From Octopus vulgaris (taxonomy: Eukaryota): a stretch of DNA of 64,000 nt. The notes below the pieces were generated by a model. The model made no database searches. It was not told the origin of the DNA and saw only the letters and a program-made list of their open reading frames with translations. Position numbers and translations under genes: made by a program. Positions 16,151 to 27,638 of this stretch are shown here, one piece after another. Location of the stretch: NCBI GenBank assembly GCA_951406725.2, contig OX597827.1, positions 41,168,001-41,232,000 on the forward strand, read 5' to 3'. Within the stretch, counting starts at the first letter, position 1; each line of letters opens with the position of its first letter.

Positions 16151-17829
16151 TACCAGTAAAACATAAAACTAAACGTGTGTGTATGTAATTGTTCATATAT
16201 GTGTATTGATGTCTGTCTCTGTCTTTGCAGTGACATTTGAAAAACTGTCTTCTGTGTGTATGTTTTTATTTCAACAGTTTGACAGAGATCAATAGGTTAA
16301 GTATTAGCTTTAAAAAATGGGTATTGGTGTTTGTTGATGCAATCGACTGAAGCCTTCCAAGACAGTACCGTAGGTTGGCAGCTGTCCAATGACTAAGTTA
16401 AAGAGTAACGACTTAAATTGATTAAGCATTATTGGTTATTGAATCTAGAGAAAGGCAGTGGTTTAGTATACAGAACTAACATTTGTTGGGGATTCTTATG
16501 TTTGACTAATGAAGTTTGTTGCTGTCATCATTTTTGTGTCTGTGTGCTTTTTTTCTCTTTGCTAAGCTGGAATGGGTTGGACAAGACTTTCTGAGGCAGT
16601 GTTTCATACCAGGATCTTCTTTCTGACATCATCTCTTTTAGCCACTTTTTACCACCTGTAAGAATATGTTAATGAAAATGCCATAGCAACATGTGTCCTC
16701 ATTGTCATTTTGATGTCCTCTTTAGTCAGCTCAGAGCTTTAGAAGAAGACAGACATTTGTCCAAAGTGCCACATAGTGGTACTGAACCTGAAGCCTTAAG
16801 CCATGTGGACAGCAAGCTTCTTCACCACACAACCATCCACGCATGTGTGTGTGTGTGTTTTGCGAGTAAATGTTTCCTAACTCTGTTGTTATCTGTAATC
16901 CAGCAGATTTGTGATCAAAAACATTTCAACAATGATAATCCCAAGTTTTTTGAGGACTTCTTTTTTTGTATCAAACATGGTTTGTCTCTGACTCACTACA
17001 TTATTGAAATGTGTCTTTTGTTGTTATTGTTGTTGCTTATTCCCTGGATCAGCTCTTCACTCAAATTTTATATAATCAAAGACATCCCACTATTGACTAA
17101 CCTCATCCTGGTTTTTACCTCCTTCAGACTTATTGTATCCAAGGCAATAAGTATACAATGTGTATTCATTCGTTTAAGTAAGATGTGTGATTCTTTGAAG
17201 ATTTGGCTGCTATTTCTAGCAGGTTGAATGACTATATAAGAGAGCTCTCTTCCGCTTCAGCTTATTTTGGATTTGTTAGCTGACATTAGTTGATTTCTGA
17301 CACTTGTCCTACAGGAAGTGGATTTAAACCCTTCAAATACCTATATTCTTAGGTTATTAAATGAATTTCATTACTTCCTTTTATTGATTTGTGTGGCAAT
17401 ATTTGAAATAAACTAATAATTCTTGTTCTCTGTCGTTATATTCTATTGGTTGTATGTTTGTCAATTTCTCTCTCTCTCTCTCTCATTCTTTTATTTTTGT
17501 ACGTATTAGTTGTAATTTAGCCAAGGTCGTCTGATTAAGCAGACCTATGTATGAAGTCATTTCAGCTATTACCATTCTTTCTGTCTTGCTTCCTTTCCAT
17601 TAATATATTATAGAAATAGCAAAAGCCTTTCAATATATGTATGGCTGCGTGTACTCTGTTACTCTGCCTATCTCTCTGTGTTCTGTTGCTCAAGAAAAAG
17701 TAATGAAAGAGAATATTGATGTGAATGTCTTACTCAGTTTCAGTTAACTTTTGCACACGTGCTATTCAAAAAGAAATTGAAGCAGGGTCATACTGTTTTT
17801 CAATAGTACTAAGACGTATATGTATGGGT

Positions 17830-17985
17830 TAGTCCACATTACTCTGTAAGGAGCATAGGGCCTGTTTCCTGGTTTCTCTTGCTTATATATTCTTCCCTGA
17901 ACAGAATGCAAAGCATTGCCTGGTCCTGGAATCGAAACCACAATCTTACGATCGTAAGTCCAACACCCTAACTGCTAAGTCATGT
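17830..17985 (-). mobile_element. tRNA-derived SINE fragment
   Basis: Minus-strand head tgacttagcagttagggtgttggacttacgatcgtaagattgtggtttcgattcc with A/B boxes, related to the head at 25651. Confidence 0.65.
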
Positions 17986-17999
17986 GGTGTATATATGTT

Positions 18000-18035
<36 letters not shown>

Positions 18036-18038
<3 letters not shown>

Positions 18039-18525
18039 TTTTATTCTTGTTTCAGTAATTTGACTGCAACCATGCTGGAGCACTGCCTTTAGTCAAATAA
18101 ATCTCTCTACTGGACTTATTTTTTTTGTTAACCTAGTACTTATTCTATTGGACTCTTCTGTCAAACTGCTATGTTATGGGGATGAAAACACCCCATCATC
18201 GGTTATCAAGTGATGGTGAGGTGGTGGGAACATATACATATATATATGAGTGAGTAGACAAATGAAGGAAGGGCACTCAACACATTTATTGCAAGTTACA
18301 CGCATAGATCAAAACAGTTTGATTTGGAATCCTTGGTACTCTGAGTTTCAAGTGTGTGGCTAGTCCTTGGGTATTGGGGTCTATATATACCAAATCCACT
18401 TACAAGGCTTTGGTTAGCCTGAGGCTATAGTAGAAGTCATCTGCCCAAGGTGTCACACAGTGGGACTGAACCCGGAACTATGTGGTTGGGAAGCAAGTTC
18501 TTACCACACACTCATGCCTGCACCT
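18036..18525 (-). mobile_element. Family A CORE-type SINE with an insert in its internal microsatellite
   Basis: Reverse complement of family A from tail (cttgtttcagtaatttgactgc) to head (cctgcacct), with unrelated sequence at about 18250-18380. Confidence 0.85.
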
Positions 18526-18540
18526 ATATATATATGATAT

Positions 18541-18940
18541 AGAAATGGCTGTGCAGTTAAGAAAAAGCTTGCTTCACAACCATTTGGTTCTGGCCTCTAT
18601 TCTACTGCTTAACTTATTACTCATATATTTGCTACTGTAGCTCCAGATTGACCTATAACCATGTGAGTATTATTTGTTAGACAGAAACTGTGCCAAAGCT
18701 GGTTGTGTGTGTGTGTGTGTGTGCATGTATTTACACTGGTCTAAAAAAGAAAGAAAAGAAAACAAGAATTCTTGTTAATGTCGTGTCCCTTTATATCCTG
18801 TAATTTAGCAGTTCACCAAGGAGATCAATAAATACCAGACTGAAATAAGTTCTAGAGGTAATATAATTGACTAAAATATTTGAGGCAGCAATGCCCCAAC
18901 ATGGCCATAGTTCAGTGATTGAAACCAGTAAAAGAATACA
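18541..18940 (+). mobile_element. Family A SINE, diverged copy, head-to-head with the preceding copy
   Basis: tggctgtgcagttaag...tttgttagacagaaactg...gccccaacatggccatagttcagtgattgaaaccagtaaaagaata. Confidence 0.75.
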
Positions 18941-19684
18941 TACATATATGCACTGACAAACACACATTCTCCTTCTACTGTTTCCCCACCATACAAACTT
19001 CCATTCTCTCCTTGCCATACTCAGATGCACATCCCATCCAGGCATGTTGGATGTGGAGACCAAATTAATGAAATATGTTTCCATCATTTGAAATTAGGCA
19101 ATTAAATACACCACAGCTTTTCTGTTTGCAAGTCATAGTGTGTATATAAATATGTGTTTCATTTTTTTTTTCTCCTGATCAAATCGGATTTGCTTAATTA
19201 TATCCCACTGATACTGTTTGATGTTTTATACTGTGACATTTAATTATTGTGAGTTACAGTTTATTTTTGTGTGTATGTATGTTGTTCATGTGTGTGCGAC
19301 TAAATGTTAAATAACACCAATGAGAACAGCAACAATTTCGTATATAAATGGCAACACAAGGCCCTTTGTATCTTCTGTAGGGGATGGATAGAAATGAGAT
19401 GATGGAGAACATTCATACATCTCTTCAAGAACAAGAATACAAAAAATAATGAGTTTCTTTTTAACATGTAAGATGATTTTCGTTTCTTACTACAATAATG
19501 ATTTATTTGGATTAAGCACAAGGTCAGTATATGTCTGGATGATATTATTGAAGTTGACTGAATTGGTATCAGTATTTTAGAAGTACATATTTGATCAGCT
19601 TCAGAGGAATGAGTTGTTAAGTTAACCTCCATTTAGGTTTCAGATCAAAATCAGGAATCAGTCAGAATTTAGTGATGCCTTTAA

Positions 19685-19904
19685 CCCTTTTTGTTACTGT
19701 ATTTATTTTGAATGCTCTGTGTTTCTTTCAATTACTTTAAATATAACAAAGAATTTAGTAAAATAACTTAGTTATCATTAAGCTAGTGTTAGGAATATAA
19801 ATTGTGACTAAGGTTTGGTGGAAGATTTTAATTCAAAATTCATGAAAACAAGGCATTTGTACTCAGAGCCAGAGCCAGTTTCTGCCAGGTTGGTAACAAA
19901 AGGG
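19685..19904. mobile_element. piggyBac-type MITE (220 bp)
   Basis: TTAA on both sides (19681-84, 19905-08) and TIRs ccctttttgttac / gtaacaaaaggg. Near-identical second copy at 26663-26882. Confidence 0.9.
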
Positions 19905-19949
19905 TTAAATTCAGTTTTCTACTGTATTGGCTATAATAACTATTATAAT

Positions 19950-20385
19950 TCCTGGGGCTATAAACGTCAGTAGCACTGTCCTGTATAGGATGCCACACTT
20001 GGTTGGCAATTATATGTTACAATTCTGTACTACTACTGCTTATATTTTGCTCAGAGATTTAATATAGCTTATTTCTACTTTTTTGAGATCAGCGACAGTT
20101 TGTCACTGGAAAAAGCGTATAGTATTTTGCGAGTGGAATGAGTTTACATCACTAGCTTGTGCTTAACACACACTGAGGACAGGTAACCACCCAGAAACTT
20201 GAATCTGTGTGTATACTGTGTGTATCACGTAAGGCTAGAAATGGGAGTGATGACCTCCCCTCATAAATACTAATTGGACACAGAATGTGTGTCGTTAGCC
20301 AGCTGGAGGAGATGTCTTCCTGGGGTTATAAACATCAGTAGCACTGTCCTGTACAGAACGTCACACTTGGTTGGCAATTATATGT
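19950..20385 (+). mobile_element. Retrozyme-like element: 368-bp unit plus about 68-bp terminal redundancy, containing a hammerhead motif
   Basis: Direct repeat 19949-20017 versus 20317-20385, flanking TSD aactattataat (19938-49) / aactataataat (20386-97), internal hammerhead at 20166-20212, and no ORF. Confidence 0.75.
20166..20212 (+). ncRNA. Minimal type I hammerhead ribozyme motif (decayed)
   Basis: acacaca-CTGAGGA-caggt-aacc-accca-GAAA-cttgaa-TC-tgtgtgt: perfect 7-bp stem I and complete core. Stem II mismatches are explained by CpG decay from cgggt/acccg, and stem III from ctcgag. Confidence 0.8.
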
Positions 20386-20602
20386 AACTATAATAATGTA
20401 TTAGATAAAAAGCAACATATTTTGCATAGAACAAAATAGTTGTAAGCCTTGATTAGTACTCATTTTACTGACATTGAAGGAGCACGCAGCAGAGTTAGTT
20501 AACCTTGCTGAAGTTAAACAGGTTATTTGTTTGGTATTTCATCTGGTACTCTTTCATTTCTACAATTTCATTGTTTTTTTTTGTTTTTTTCATAATAATA
20601 AT

Positions 20603-20979
20603 AATAAGAGTACTCAGAAAGTGCAAACCTCCGCCAAGGTAACACCAACGTCCTTTCAATGATTAGCCATAGATGATTTTTAGAATGGGAATATCTAAAA
20701 TAAACTTGACTGCTCTCACAAACTAGAATACTTAATGAATCTGACAGCTCTCAAAAATTAAGTAAAAAAACAAAACAAAAAAATAATCCAGAATCCTTGT
20801 CTGGTACTGGGTTGATCCCAAAATCTAATCATGCCAGTCATGAGGCCAAACATTCTTTAAAGTTTCATCCGAATCCATCCAGCGGTTGTTGAGTTATCTT
20901 GTCCACAGACAAACAGACAAATAAACAAACATGACTGAAAACAATATTATTACCTCTGCCTTAGCCAAGGTGGAGGTGG
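20603..20979 (-). mobile_element. Helentron-associated non-autonomous element (DINE-1/HINE-like)
   Basis: Terminal palindrome acctctgccttagccaaggtggaggt (20952-77), matching subterminal repeat acctccgcc (20627-35) next to a short hairpin gtactcagaaagtgc, and an internal acagacaaacagaca microsatellite. This is the DINE-1 architecture. Confidence 0.7.
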
Positions 20980-20982
20980 TGG

Positions 20983-21212
20983 TAATAATAATAATAATAA
21001 TAATAATCCTTTCTACTAAAGGCACAAGGCCTGAAATTTTGGGAGAGGGGACTAGTCAATTATATCAACCCCAGTGTTTCACCGGTACTTAATTTATTGA
21101 CCCCCAAAAGGCAAAGTTGACCTCAGCGGAATTTGAACTCAGAATGTAACGACAGGTGAAATGCCTCTAAGCATTTCATCCAGTGTGCCAATGATTCTGC
21201 CAGCTCATCACC

Positions 21213-21244
<32 letters not shown>

Positions 21245-21950
21245 CATCCTTTTTATTATAGGCACAAGGCCTAAAATATGTTTTGTAGGGACTGAGGTGA
21301 GTCAAATATTTCTCCCACCAGTGCTTAATTTATCGACTCCAAAAGGATGAAAAGCAAAATTGATTTTGGTGGAATTTGAACTCGGCACATAAAGAGCTGA
21401 AGGAAATACTGCCAAACATTTTGTCTGAGTGCTAGTGATTCTACCGGCTCATTGTCTTTTTCGCAATACCAATAATTTCTCACATGAGTACAAAGACACA
21501 GTATTTTTTTTATGGTACAAGGAAATTACAAGTACTTGACTGGCACTTTATTTATGAACCTCCTCACCAATGATAAAAAGCAGTCAAAACCTGGTGGGAT
21601 TTGAACTTGGAATTGTAAACTGATGCTTCTTAATACATTAAGACATTTTGTTTGACTTCTGCCATGTGCTTACATCAACTCCACTACTTGACTAGTTATT
21701 TTGTTACTCCCGAGAGAATGAAAGGCAATGTTGACCTCTTTGAGACATGACTAAAAACATAGGGACACAACCAAATGTCAAGGCATCTTGTTTGCTACTC
21801 TACCCTCTCCTCCTTCCAATGCTTTACTTGTACATATTTTATTGAACCCCTCAAAAGGATGAAAGTCAAAGTTGACCTTGGCAGAATGAAAGACAGATGA
21901 AATGCTGTTAAGCATTTTGTCTGGTGTGTTAATGATTCTGACAGCTCACC
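20983..21950 (-). mobile_element. Cluster of about 5 co-oriented family B SINEs separated by (aat)n
   Basis: Repeated ggcacaaggcc...tttattgaccc...aaaggcaaagttgacc...gaatttgaactc units; more decayed copies continue to about 22340. Confidence 0.85.
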
Positions 21951-23638
21951 ACATTCTTTCTTAATGATAATATTAATGATGATGATGATAATAACAACAA
22001 CAGCAACAGTAATTTCTTGTAAGGGAGGGATAATGCTTATGAAATAAATACCTGTCTGTTATAAAATGCTATTGATATCTTCTTTGAGGAGATGAAAGGA
22101 GAAGCTGTTGGTGGCAGCATTTGAACTGACAATGTAATGATAAAAAACTCTACACTGCAGTATTTTTAACCTGACAGTCAGCTCTCTTCAATAATGACAA
22201 TGATTTCTTTTATTGATCTCAGGCTTCAGATTTGTGTGGGAGTGTCTTTTGTCAATTAAATGAATTACTGTTTACTTACATTTCAACCTGTGGTGGAGAT
22301 GAAGGTTGAAGTTAGCACAAGTAGGATTTGAAATCAGAAACTGCTGACTCGCTACCCTTAGTAAGAGAGTGTATCATCTTCTAAATAGCAGCCAGAAAGG
22401 CTATTTTACCCCTTCTTCTCCATAGTTTTTCTATACTTCCATTCTGTTCTCACCACTCACTTCCTACTGCATTCCTCCATGTAATGAATTTGAATTTCAC
22501 TGTTGTTTCCTCTGTCTTTGTAATGTAAGGCTTACCATAAATGCTTTTTTAACTTTACTGGTTCCAGTCATTGGACTAGCAGCTAGGGTACTGCTTGGAA
22601 GACTTTAGTTGTTCAAACCTACCCCAGTGCTTATTTCAATGCTGGTTAGTCACTTTTTGCTGAACCACTAAGTTACAGGGATGTCAGCAAACCAGTACCA
22701 GTTGTCAAGCTGTGAGAGACATAAACTCTCTCTCTTTCACACACACACACATTCCTCTGTAATAAAAAAGAAAATTCCTTCTATGAAAAGCAGGAAACAG
22801 GTGATGGTTGCCTAACAGGAAGTGTATCTGGCTATAAAAATATTGTCCTGTCTAAGTCATGCTAACATAGAAAAACAAATGCTAAACAAAACAAATGATA
22901 TTCTTACACATCTTGATTCAGCACAGTTTCCCTCTATTAAATTCACTCACAAAGCATAAGCTAGCTAGGAGCTATAATAGAAGGCACCTCAAAGGTTACT
23001 ATTCAGTAGGACTGAACCCAAAACCTGATGGCTGTGAGGCAAACTTGTTACTCACAGAGCCATGCCTGGTAATGATTTTTCTTTTCCATTCACTTGTGTA
23101 ATTTCAAATGTTGCCTTTTTTTCTTTCTCACTACATTTTGTGAGCCCACACTTTTTACTATGTGTTTAACAAGTCTGACATCTACCTACCTTGCTTGGCA
23201 AGTCCCCACTCCTTGTTCAGTCTAATGAAACTTCCACAATCCTCCCAACCTGCTTAAGTGTGTCTTCTAGGCTCAACCTTGCTTTACTTAGTGGCGCTTT
23301 GTTATATTATCATTTTTCGTTTTTTTTTCTCTCTTCAGCTTTCCATTGATTTTTTCTGTTTCTGATTTTGTTTTGATTTGAAGTTTATTTTTCCTTGTCA
23401 TGTTCATCATCATCATCGTCATCATCATCTTCCGTTATCACATCTTTGCCACTGTCTGTAATTTTTATCACTGTCATAGCAGTTGTCATTGTTAGCATTC
23501 ATCATCATTGGCTTGGCTTTTCACTTTAACAGCCATGGTTGCAGTGGAGAAGGCGAAGTCTGTCTGTCTTGTCCGGCCTTGAATGTCACTGATATCAACT
23601 ATGTTACTATATTTAGTTGTGTGTGCAAATATGTATGT

Positions 23639-26134: not shown

Positions 26135-26662
26135 CAGTTGAAATAATAAATGCTTTATTTGAAAAATAGGGAAGGGTTAATGACATGAATAGCACTGTGT
26201 CAAAATACCACATATAAATCCCTGCCTATCCTTGCTAGCATGGAAAAAAACCACATTAAATGAATGAATGAAAGATGTGTGTGTGTGTGTGCGTGTTTGT
26301 GTGTTTGATGAAATTTACTTCCTAACCATGTAGTTTCAGGTTCAGTCCTTCTGTGTGGCACCTTTGGCAAGTGTCTTCTACTATAATCCTAAGTTGACTA
26401 AAGTCTTGTGAATGAATTTGACAGATGGAAACTGAAAGAAACCTGGCAATTATATGTGTGAGTTTGTGTCTCCTCAACATTGTGTGATTGTTGTAAACAG
26501 ATTTCATTAATTTCCTGTTTTCTGTGTAGACATAATCAGGCCATGGGGAAATATTACCTTGTTTAGAAACAGGTAAGGATTATTGACAAGGAGGGCATAT
26601 GGCCTTAGAAAATCTCCCCAAACTCTGTCTGATCCATACAAGCATGGAAAAATGGATGTAAA

Positions 26663-26882
26663 CCCTTTCGTTACTGTATTTATTTTGAGATGCTCTGTGT
26701 TTCTTTCAATTACTTTAAATATAACAAAGAATTTAGTAAAATAACTTAGTTACCATTAAGCTAGTATTAGGTACACAAATTGTGACTAAGGTTTGGTGGA
26801 AGATTTTAATTCAAAATTTATGAAAACAAGACATTTGTACTCAGAGCCAGAGCCGGTTTCAGCTGGGTTGGTAATAAAAGGG
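26663..26882. mobile_element. piggyBac-type MITE, second copy, inserted in a SINE tail
   Basis: Near-identical to 19685-19904; flanks taaa/ttaa. Removing it restores the SINE tail catggaaaaatggatgttaaacaatgatgat. Confidence 0.9.
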
Positions 26883-27638
26883 TTAAACAATGATGATATG
26901 TATTTTAGTATTTTTGTGTGCCTATCTATCCATCTAGCTAGCTATCACTCTATCTCTATATGTATCTCTAATCTATATATGTATCTGTTTGCATTTGTAT
27001 GTATTTATGTGTGTGAATCGTTGAAATTTTACACGCTAGAGAAGAGCAATGTGGAGAAGGATAGCTGAAAGCCTTGAACTAAAAGAGTGTTATGGTATTC
27101 AAAATATTTCCAAATTTGTTTTTAAATTTAGATTTAGTAATCTTTGGGGAACATTTTCACTTATATTATTTTAACATTCCATTAGTAATTGGACTTCACT
27201 TTAGTTTTATTGTAAGTTTTCTCTCAAGTATGCATTTTAATATCTTCAGATTTTGTTTTCTTTCTCTCAATTGCATTCATATATGACAAGACTTCAGATA
27301 CTCAACTAGATCTAGTTTAATGTCTCTGAACCAGTCTTTGGCATGAGCATCGCCGAGGCAGTCTATCTTGTTTAGTGTTACTGAGCTTGCTTTTTTTCAC
27401 TGTTACTGAGCCAGCATTTATTTTTGTTGTTGCCAAGATATCATATCAGCAAAAGCTGATTTAAGAACTGGTTTCTGAAAATCCACTAAATTCATAAAGT
27501 AGCTTGATTGTTTTCTGGTATCCAAGGAAGTTGTAGGTTGAATTGAAGTTTAAAAAAAATAAAAACAAAAATCCCAGAAAAACATAACCTGAGTTATTTG
27601 ATATCTGCACACCAATCCTATTATTAAAACTTTGTGTA

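What the first reader, a model, noticed from the sequence alone, without database searches (positions are those of the whole stretch)
19938..20397. Integrated 1.2-mer of a putative circular hammerhead retrozyme RNA (368-nt monomer) with a 12-bp TSD
Seen: about 69-bp direct repeats 368 bp apart (19949-20017 / 20317-20385), a 12-bp TSD with one mismatch immediately outside them, no ORF, and one type I hammerhead inside (7-bp perfect stem I, CUGAGGA/GAAA/UC core). Both stem II mismatches are CG to CA changes, so an ancestral fold ACACACA CUGAGGA CGGGU AACC ACCCG GAAA CUCGAG UC UGUGUGU can be reconstructed, with a palindromic stem III. Known: metazoan non-LTR retrozymes are small tandem units with minimal type I hammerheads that self-cleave (often as dimers), circularise, and are thought to be mobilised by Penelope RT. 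Inference: a terminal redundancy starting away from the ribozyme is what reverse transcription slightly more than once around a circle would leave, so this may be a cephalopod circRNA retrozyme family. I cannot tell whether it has been catalogued.
Basis: partly seen in the sequence, partly recalled or inferred. Interest (0 to 1): 0.85.

Follow-up and report, generated by a model that had tools for sequence, protein, structure and literature searches.

The report
Hammerhead retrozyme and its LINE parasite
This is a decayed copy of a family of small protein-free jumping elements that carry a hammerhead ribozyme motif and are likely copied by Penelope enzymes from a circular RNA, and a LINE jumping gene inserts at one fixed spot in these elements and also at the first bases of U2 snRNA genes, which suggests the elements may carry a U2-like promoter.

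Summary
Observation confirmed with corrections. The repeats (63/69), 13-bp TSD and hammerhead are there. The family unit is 357 nt; 368 includes a private 11-nt duplication, and this copy's ribozyme is decayed. The family has several hundred dispersed copies plus sister families, one of them very young. Start points are not freely permuted. 3' ends sit at two sites ~50 nt apart, half the loci have head-to-head arms, and such arms pair one short with one long end (36 vs 1 vs 0; young family 22 vs 0 vs 0). That is Penelope anatomy. Copies run past the cleavage site and the putative start site without extra stops, and all units of one insertion share one haplotype (117/119), which favours a circular template. 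Unexpected: an L1/Tx1-type LINE inserts ~60 nt 5' of the cleavage site in many sister families, and a 99%-identical copy sits at U2 snRNA +1; a U2-like upstream motif lies ~59 nt before the site. Retrozymes and their Penelope link are published. This scan already noted Tx1 in Penelope hammerhead tails in a vertebrate. No RNA or cleavage data were obtained, and the autonomous partner was not found.

The parts
19937..19949 (+). left target-site duplication (13 nt, last base shared with the element)
19949..20385 (+). retrozyme insertion, 1.2 units, 5'-truncated at c101, 3' end at the short (S) site c169 (c = position after the cleavage site in the 357-nt unit); 37 of 432 bases differ from the column majority
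19949..20017 (+). first copy of the terminal redundancy
20015..20023 (+). short (S) family 3'-end site, c167-175; inferred first reverse-transcription start
20024..20072 (+). Penelope-type tail, ending at the long (L) family 3'-end site c219-224; inferred second start
20079..20084 (+). T6 run; a T4+ run here is kept in about 75% of family rows
20085..20096 (+). motif resembling the element 57-61 nt upstream of U2 snRNA genes (PSE-like); weak in this copy (shuffle p 0.059)
20145..20164 (+). site duplicated when the L1/Tx1-type LINE inserts in other copies (c297-316); inferred transcription start; empty in this copy
20166..20212 (+). type I hammerhead motif, decayed (stem II G and stem III G changed to A); predicted cleavage after 20205
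20205..20226 (+). private 11-nt tandem duplication that makes the unit 368 rather than 357 nt
20317..20385 (+). second copy of the terminal redundancy
20385..20397 (+). right target-site duplication

Best explanation
The element is a decayed, 5'-truncated copy of a dispersed 357-nt protein-free hammerhead repeat family that is likely mobilised in trans by a Penelope reverse transcriptase/GIY-YIG endonuclease, likely from a circular RNA. Shown: two fixed 3' ends, head-to-head arms pairing one short and one long end, (TA)n targets, multimers of one haplotype, and no excess of 5' ends at the cleavage site or the putative start. Inferred: tandem copies are transcribed from a start near c300, the hammerheads (probably as dimers) cut out monomers, a host ligase closes them, and a Penelope protein dimer nicks both strands of AT-rich DNA. 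One strand would prime at the short site and the other at the long site of the same RNA; each runs round the template until it drops off, and the two cDNAs join head to head. More-than-unit copying would restore the upstream promoter motif. Shown separately: an L1/Tx1-type LINE inserts at c297-316 with 12-23-bp duplications, and a near-identical LINE inserts at U2 +1.
For: 3' ends: 125 of 157 arms in 95 probe-selected loci end at c160-180 or c212-236; 19 of 30 with an independent probe inside the ribozyme; young family G 65 of 71. Head-to-head arms in 49 of 95 loci; among 59 pairs 36 short+long, 1 short+short, 0 long+long, 22 with another end; family G 22, 0, 0 and 7 of 29. TA runs follow 53 of 96 short and 35 of 74 long ends against 7% background. 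A young autonomous Penelope in this genome (RT + C-terminal GIY-YIG) shows the same two ends (9 and 22 of its hits), TA targets and an inverted short+long copy. In vitro, a Penelope RT starts at two internal sites that define the tail and extends both target strands (PMC11167929). Template: stops at the cleavage site 2 of 59 passes (2.4 expected) in A and 1 of 55 (1.2) in G; at the putative start 2 of 41 (2.3) and 1 of 52 (2.1). 27 of 65 G arms exceed one unit, up to 5.5 units. Within-locus haplotype agreement 117 of 119 cells against 58.7 expected in G, and 84% against 57% in A. Ribozyme kept across families: loop II and N7 vary, stems and a palindromic stem III are kept with paired changes.
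Against: No RNA evidence of any kind was obtained. No autonomous Penelope with a terminal repeat matching this unit was found in about 70 Penelope loci. PMC11167929 found hammerhead cleavage dispensable for insertion and unprocessed RNA the main substrate. Family A has C-A at 10.1/11.1 and may cleave poorly; only 1 of 9 Xenopus retrozyme dimers cleaved in 10.64898/2026.07.22.740005. Long uncleaved multimers from unsampled arrays would give the same lack of run-off. 11 of 30 arms found with the ribozyme probe end elsewhere, 5 of them at c1-30. The U2-like motif is weak in family A itself and is not the best hit in the L022 monomer or in this copy.
Confidence: 0.68

Rival explanations
1. Same Penelope-mobilised family, but the template is a linear, uncleaved multimeric read-through transcript; no circle is needed and the ribozyme acts elsewhere in the cycle or weakly.
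For: PMC11167929 (cleavage not needed in vitro, no reads ending at the cleavage site); C-A at 10.1/11.1; multimers of one haplotype exist as possible sources.
Against: A linear RNA must have a 5' end at a start site or a cleavage site, and neither shows extra stops in about 200 passes. Sampled loci reach at most 5.5 units.
Confidence: 0.22
2. The copies are 5'-truncated terminal repeats (pLTRs) of an autonomous Penelope not sampled here, not a free non-autonomous family.
For: All the insertion hallmarks are those of Penelope pLTRs; the Penelope search scored only 150 of 6,136 candidates. Penelope ORF fragments lie within about 1.5 kb of a few loci, three on the same strand upstream (L039, L136, L163).
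Against: Units follow each other head to tail with no ORF between, up to 5.5 times. The only shared coding sequence found upstream of arm starts was the LINE; the three Penelope fragments share no flank with each other.
Confidence: 0.05
3. The L1/Tx1-type LINE is the autonomous partner: it carries the hammerhead unit as a pseudo-LTR and the 357-nt unit is its deletion derivative.
For: Young intact LINEs are flanked on both sides by the unit and enclosed in short+long inverted structures (L344, L346). Several LINE 3' pieces joined to the unit show no unit upstream.
Against: The LINE has its own AATAAA 3' end and 12-23-bp duplications. Different 5' truncations are each joined to c310-316, and a 99%-identical copy sits in U2 with no unit. 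It behaves as an ordinary site-specific LINE, not as a TA-tract inserter.
Confidence: 0.04
4. DNA-level satellite or local duplication with a chance hammerhead-like string.
For: This copy does not fold as a hammerhead; no Rfam hit.
Against: Dispersal over many contigs, fixed 3' ends, 5' truncation, inverted arms and paired stem changes across families.
Confidence: 0.01

Closest known systems
Metazoan non-LTR retrozymes (coral, mussel, axolotl; PMC7229834)
   Same: 170-400-nt ORF-less unit, one type I hammerhead per unit, tandem copies, low GC, long TSDs when present; mussel units are 350-390 bp.
   Different: Mostly dispersed 0.2-2-unit insertions with fixed 3' ends and head-to-head arms; C-A at 10.1/11.1; circles not shown here. 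PMC7761336 states that retrozymes seem to lack promoters, whereas a U2-like upstream motif is seen here.
Penelope-like element pLTRs and non-autonomous derivatives (PMC4209133, PMC3846280, 10.1101/2021.04.23.441226, 10.64898/2026.07.22.740005)
   Same: Partial tandems, inverted 5' arm, optional tail at one end, AT-rich targets, palindromic helix III, U3-A8 core variant in some families.
   Different: No ORF; no matching autonomous partner found; tail about 50-62 nt instead of 30-40; helix I of 6-7 bp and helix II of 4-5 bp are nearer the canonical size than the minimal PLE type.
Anolis Poseidon PAc (PMC11167929)
   Same: Two internal reverse-transcription starts downstream of the hammerhead define the tail; both target strands are extended.
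   Different: In vitro the start site did not depend on strand; here the two starts are almost always paired one each in an insertion (58 short+long against 1 short+short and 0 long+long).
Target-specific Tx1 LINEs: Tx1L in Tx1D, Keno in U2, Tx1-Mar (PMC4494074, PMC4640811)
   Same: CCHC ORF1, APE-RT-zinc finger ORF2, fixed site in a multicopy repeat, tandem re-insertion.
   Different: The target is a hammerhead repeat. The U2 site is +1, whereas Keno and Utopia share a site before nucleotide 39. One subfamily uses both targets.
Newt satellite 2 (snRNA-type promoter; cited in PMC2220036, original not held)
   Same: Hammerhead repeat with an snRNA-type promoter.
   Different: Shown by experiment in the newt; only inferred from sequence here.
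Dictyostelium TRE5 / NLTR-A (PMC5911963)
   Same: L1-type LINE inserting at a fixed distance from small-RNA gene starts.
   Different: Those target tRNA genes through TFIIIB; here targeting by promoter factors is only one reading.

Membership tests
Non-LTR retrozyme | Small ORF-less unit of about 150-450 bp | tested here: met
   357 nt; longest stop-free stretch 57 codons
Non-LTR retrozyme | One type I hammerhead per unit | tested here: met
   column counts; paired changes across families; no Rfam model hit
Non-LTR retrozyme | Tandem copies with two or more hammerheads | tested here: met
   7 of 125 A arms and 15 of 65 G arms cross the site twice; the window copy has only one
Non-LTR retrozyme | Self-cleavage | not testable with these tools
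   needs an in vitro assay
Non-LTR retrozyme | Expressed as circular RNA | tested here: inconclusive
   indirect only; no read-level data obtained
Non-autonomous Penelope-like element | 5' truncation with two fixed 3' ends (tail) | tested here: met
Non-autonomous Penelope-like element | Head-to-head inverted arm with tail on one end | tested here: met
Non-autonomous Penelope-like element | Homology to the pLTR of an autonomous partner | tested here: inconclusive
   none in about 70 Penelope loci; sampling small
TRIM / solo LTR / plant LTR retrozyme | Identical ends and short fixed TSD | tested here: not met
   variable 5' ends, two 3' ends, TSD 10-16 bp or absent
Minimal PLE hammerhead (PMC4209133) | Bulged base after A9, G10.1-C11.1 pair, long helix II, short helix I | tested here: not met
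   the position is a pair (G-C, A-U, U-A or C-A by family); helix II 4-5 bp, helix I 6-7 bp
Tx1 clade (for the LINE) | CCHC ORF1 and APE-RT-zinc finger ORF2 | tested here: met
   Pfam; best solved relative human L1 ORF2, E 2e-66
Tx1 clade (for the LINE) | Fixed target site with TSD | tested here: met
Tx1 clade (for the LINE) | RT phylogeny groups with Tx1, not L1 | not tested
   no named reference sequences returned; the name Tx1 rests on recalled traits

The most novel reading that the evidence does not exclude
These retrozymes are snRNA-gene mimics: each unit carries a U2-type promoter that survives retrotransposition only because the RNA is circular and copied more than once round. A LINE clade homes to the start sites of such promoters by position, so it lands at U2 +1 and 60 nt before the hammerhead cut, gaining a promoter in front and a ribozyme behind, and may itself be cut out, circularised and carried by the Penelope machinery: a three-layer parasite chain (Penelope, retrozyme circle, LINE).
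Probability: 0.3. Interest if true: 0.85.

Novelty: new variant of a known kind. Interest (0 to 1): 0.62.

Why it matters
The template and enzyme of animal retrozyme spread are still hypotheses. Here the insertion scars point to Penelope, and the lack of run-off with single-haplotype multimers gives a genomic argument for a circular template. A 97-99% identical young family with over 2,000 probe hits and young intact Penelope ORFs in the same genome make this testable in vitro. The strict short+long pairing is a clue to how a Penelope dimer uses its two start sites. A LINE shared between U2 +1 and the retrozyme marks a probable promoter in elements said to lack one, and offers a test of sequence- versus promoter-guided LINE targeting.

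Tried and rejected
Rfam hammerhead models: no hit in window 17000-23000 or in three sister-family loci. A sister-family piece 600 bp behind a young Penelope ORF (L075) first looked like its pLTR; it is a separate insertion in a TA tract. 5.28-kb tandem LINE arrays first looked like LINE-plus-ribozyme multimers; they hold no hammerhead and target another repeat. An apparent pile-up of 5' ends at the cleavage site in family G (5 of 56 BLAST arms) was partly an alignment artefact and vanished in the probe-selected set. A pol III reading (T runs only in the promoter region of family A) fails in families G and H, which have T4-5 runs inside. The automatic hammerhead pattern was too lax, so the 27-of-30 target count rests on BLAST (15 loci) plus reading by eye (12 loci). 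The L444 site was called U1-like from memory; Rfam found no U1 there and the 3' flank does not continue, so it is not used. Sequencing runs: no RNA holder listed on record; no read-level result was obtained. Protein searches gave nothing for the short piece and only unnamed relatives for ORF2. Literature searches found no paper on this family, on a LINE in hammerhead repeats, or on a LINE at U2 +1; Repbase and Dfam entries and subscription journals are not covered, and bioRxiv supplements could not be seen.

Full report
Coordinates. c is the position in the 357-nt family unit counted from the base after the predicted hammerhead cleavage site; g is the same for the 362-nt sister family G. An arm is a continuous sense-strand run of the unit.

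Observation. The repeats are at 19949-20017 and 20317-20385, 63 of 69 identical. The flanking duplication is 13 nt with one mismatch in degenerate (TAA)n sequence; 20 of 63,980 window positions match the left flank as well. The hammerhead motif spans 20166-20212. Rfam gave no hammerhead hit, and the copy does not fold as one.

Family. A genome search gave 2,893 first-look candidates, of which 40 were scored. A 20-mer at c146-165 has 130 exact hits and an 18-mer in the ribozyme 88, controls 0. Dividing by the exact-match rates among held copies (25 of 75 and 14 of 58) gives roughly 350-400 units, probably low because those rates come from the best-matching copies. Copies average 91% identity to the column majority; this one differs at 37 of 432 bases, 15 of them CpG-type. 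The unit is 357 nt; this copy has an 11-nt duplication at 20205-20226. Sister families exist: B, about 70% identical, and the young G, 97-99% identical among copies, with 2,428 exact probe hits.

Ribozyme. In 92-111 aligned rows the family shows a 7-bp stem I with a further helix beyond a bulge, the CUGAGGA core, C, a 4-bp stem II, A, GAAA, a palindromic stem III and UC. Across sister families this position pairs as G-C, A-U, U-A or C-A, loop II and N7 vary, and stem III is a palindrome in 9 of the 12 parsed examples, in several different sequences; 10 of 22 loci were not parsed by the pattern. A natural intact monomer folds at z -2.76 with stems I and II but not stem III, as expected for a ribozyme that needs a dimer (PMC4209133). 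This copy has lost one stem II and one stem III pair and is probably inactive (inference).

Insertion anatomy. I mapped 95 loci, those of the first 100 of the 130 probe hits, plus 22 others. Of 157 arms in the 95, 66 end at c160-180 (short), 59 at c212-236 (long) and 32 elsewhere. With the ribozyme probe (30 of 88 hits, 5 already held) 19 of 30 end at these sites and 11 elsewhere, 5 of them at c1-30. Head-to-head arms occur in 49 of 95 loci. Of 59 pairs in all 117 loci, 36 are short+long, 1 short+short, 0 long+long and 22 include another end; the two 5' starts lie within 20 nt in 20 pairs against 8.4 expected. In G (42 loci from the first 100 of 2,428 hits, one duplicated segment dropped) 65 of 71 arms end at g165-180 or g230-240, and 22 of 29 pairs are short+long with none alike. 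TA runs follow about half the ends against 7% background. TSDs are enriched only in inverted loci (8 of 47, null 1.7; single-arm 4 of 56, null 2.7). A young autonomous Penelope in this genome shows the same pattern. The tail, the inverted arm and the two internal starts are published (10.1101/2021.04.23.441226, PMC3846280, PMC11167929). I found no autonomous Penelope whose terminal repeat matches the unit in about 70 loci; one family has its own, different hammerhead.

Template. A linear RNA must begin at a start site or a cleavage site, and reverse transcriptase should run off there. It does not: cleavage site 2 stops in 59 passes (2.4 expected) in A and 1 in 55 (1.2) in G; putative start 2 in 41 (2.3) and 1 in 52 (2.1) (three A loci with large internal insertions were left out). 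The test can detect stops: g37-48, near the base of the long stem, has 13 in 76 against 2.5. Arms reach 5.5 units. All units and both arms of one insertion share a haplotype: 117 of 119 cells at six common G polymorphisms against 58.7 expected (270 of 291 against 188.6 over all 13 columns), and 84% against 57% in A. This fits one monomer read repeatedly and argues against jumping between molecules. It does not exclude long uncleaved multimers from arrays I did not sample, and PMC11167929 found cleavage dispensable in vitro. I put a circle at about 0.7 given Penelope mobilisation. No RNA data were obtained.

The LINE. Three arms starting at c297 shared an upstream flank. Searching with that flank alone gave 533 candidates, 40 scored, 30 fetched. 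It is the 3' end of a LINE with a CCHC ORF1 and an APE-RT-zinc finger ORF2. In 27 of the 30 loci a hammerhead repeat follows the AATAAA end (15 by BLAST to family A; 12 by eye); one is followed by another LINE and two by other DNA. Different 5' truncations are joined to c310-316, and young full-length copies carry 12-23-bp duplications, so these are independent site-specific insertions that leave the ribozyme whole about 60 nt behind the LINE. Of 15 further young LINE loci, 9 lie in hammerhead repeats, 2 at U2 +1, 1 elsewhere, 1 more (L433) in a hammerhead repeat without a clear duplication, and 2 gave no 3' end (U2 confirmed in L440 by Rfam). The U2 and hammerhead copies are 98.8-99.7% identical over ORF1, endonuclease, RT and C terminus and group together in a tree of 68 of 76 loci. 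Other subfamilies use other repeats and form 5.28-kb tandem arrays. Whether the Penelope machinery also moves LINE-plus-unit composites is unresolved.

Promoter. Three otherwise unlike U2 upstream types share an ATCAGT-type motif 57-61 nt before +1 (15 distinct sequences from 20 of 48 U2 hits and neighbouring loci). A matrix built from them alone scores best 54-64 nt before the LINE site in 12 of 14 hammerhead-unit sites. These sites are related, so not independent; the motif is weak in family A (window p 0.059). The two targets also share local bases (TTYATCG, then CGG after five bases), so plain endonuclease sequence preference explains the shared targeting as well as promoter tethering does. 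Precedent: newt satellite 2 has an snRNA-type promoter (statement and citation in PMC2220036; original not held), while PMC7761336 says retrozymes seem to lack promoters.

What is known. Retrozymes, their circles and the Penelope hypothesis are in PMC7229834; pLTR homology is in 10.64898/2026.07.22.740005. Tx1 elements target transposons, microsatellites and U2 before nucleotide 39 (PMC4494074, PMC4640811). Ten searches found no report of this family, of a LINE in hammerhead repeats, or of one at U2 +1; repeat databases were not searchable. This scan noted Tx1 in Penelope hammerhead tails in a vertebrate; I read those notes after finding the pattern here and could not test them.

What I saw of each paper. 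10.64898/2026.07.22.740005: parts 1-3 of 5 (main text). PMC11167929: parts 1-2 of 4 (results). PMC4209133: parts 1-2 of 4. PMC7229834: abstract, sections 14 and 17, passages. PMC4640811: section 6, passages. PMC4494074: section 15, passages. 10.1101/2021.04.23.441226, PMC3846280, PMC13282606, PMC2220036, PMC5911963, PMC7761336: passages. No supplements were read; they may list related families.

Verdict. The given element is a dead copy of a known kind of element. The family adds genomic evidence on template and priming, and a LINE shared with U2 +1. New variant of a known kind, interest 0.62.

Noticed in passing
L348 and L347-L431 (family G): Very young 362-nt hammerhead family, 97-99% identical, 2,428 exact probe hits, U3-A8 core variant, nearly always in (TA)n; best material for experiments.
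   Followed up: yes
L080-L109, L223, L224: Young autonomous Penelope family with a 775-aa ORF, at least 76 copies identical over 573 residues; no hammerhead found in its terminal repeat by my patterns.
   Followed up: partly
L070:1906-5588: Second young Penelope family with an upstream ORF of 330-380 aa overlapping or preceding a 781-aa RT-GIY-YIG ORF, and a hammerhead variant near its 3' end.
   Followed up: partly
L327-L336: Head-to-tail arrays of intact LINEs with a 5,277-bp period (six copies in L327-L330; nine by spacing of hits on C9), inserted in an unidentified repeat with no Rfam hit.
   Followed up: partly
L312, L319-L325: LINE subfamily inserted at one site of another unidentified repeat clustered on contigs C27 and C2.
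   Followed up: no
L341:2130-2200 (orientation of the LINE), L326: LINE inserted about 30 nt behind a TATA box in a repeated sequence, again start-site-like.
   Followed up: no
L289, L290, L296, L255: Internally deleted LINE copies rejoin at the same point near the ORF2 end, possibly a splice acceptor.
   Followed up: no
L447-L466: U2 genes fall into three unlike upstream types sharing only a short motif near -59; some lie in tandem arrays with LINE insertions.
   Followed up: partly
L007, L016, L019, L022, L178: A common ~430-bp SINE-like repeat directly follows the 3' end of several copies.
   Followed up: no
window 20983-21208 and 21223-21452: Two neighbouring copies of a common SINE-like repeat led by (TAA)n.
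   Followed up: no
window 19682-19909: 228-bp repeat with inverted ends just left of the element, 93% identical to 26659-26887; MITE-like.
   Followed up: no
L200 and L201: Two near-identical loci 66 kb apart, probably a segmental duplicate; both were kept in the end counts.
   Followed up: no
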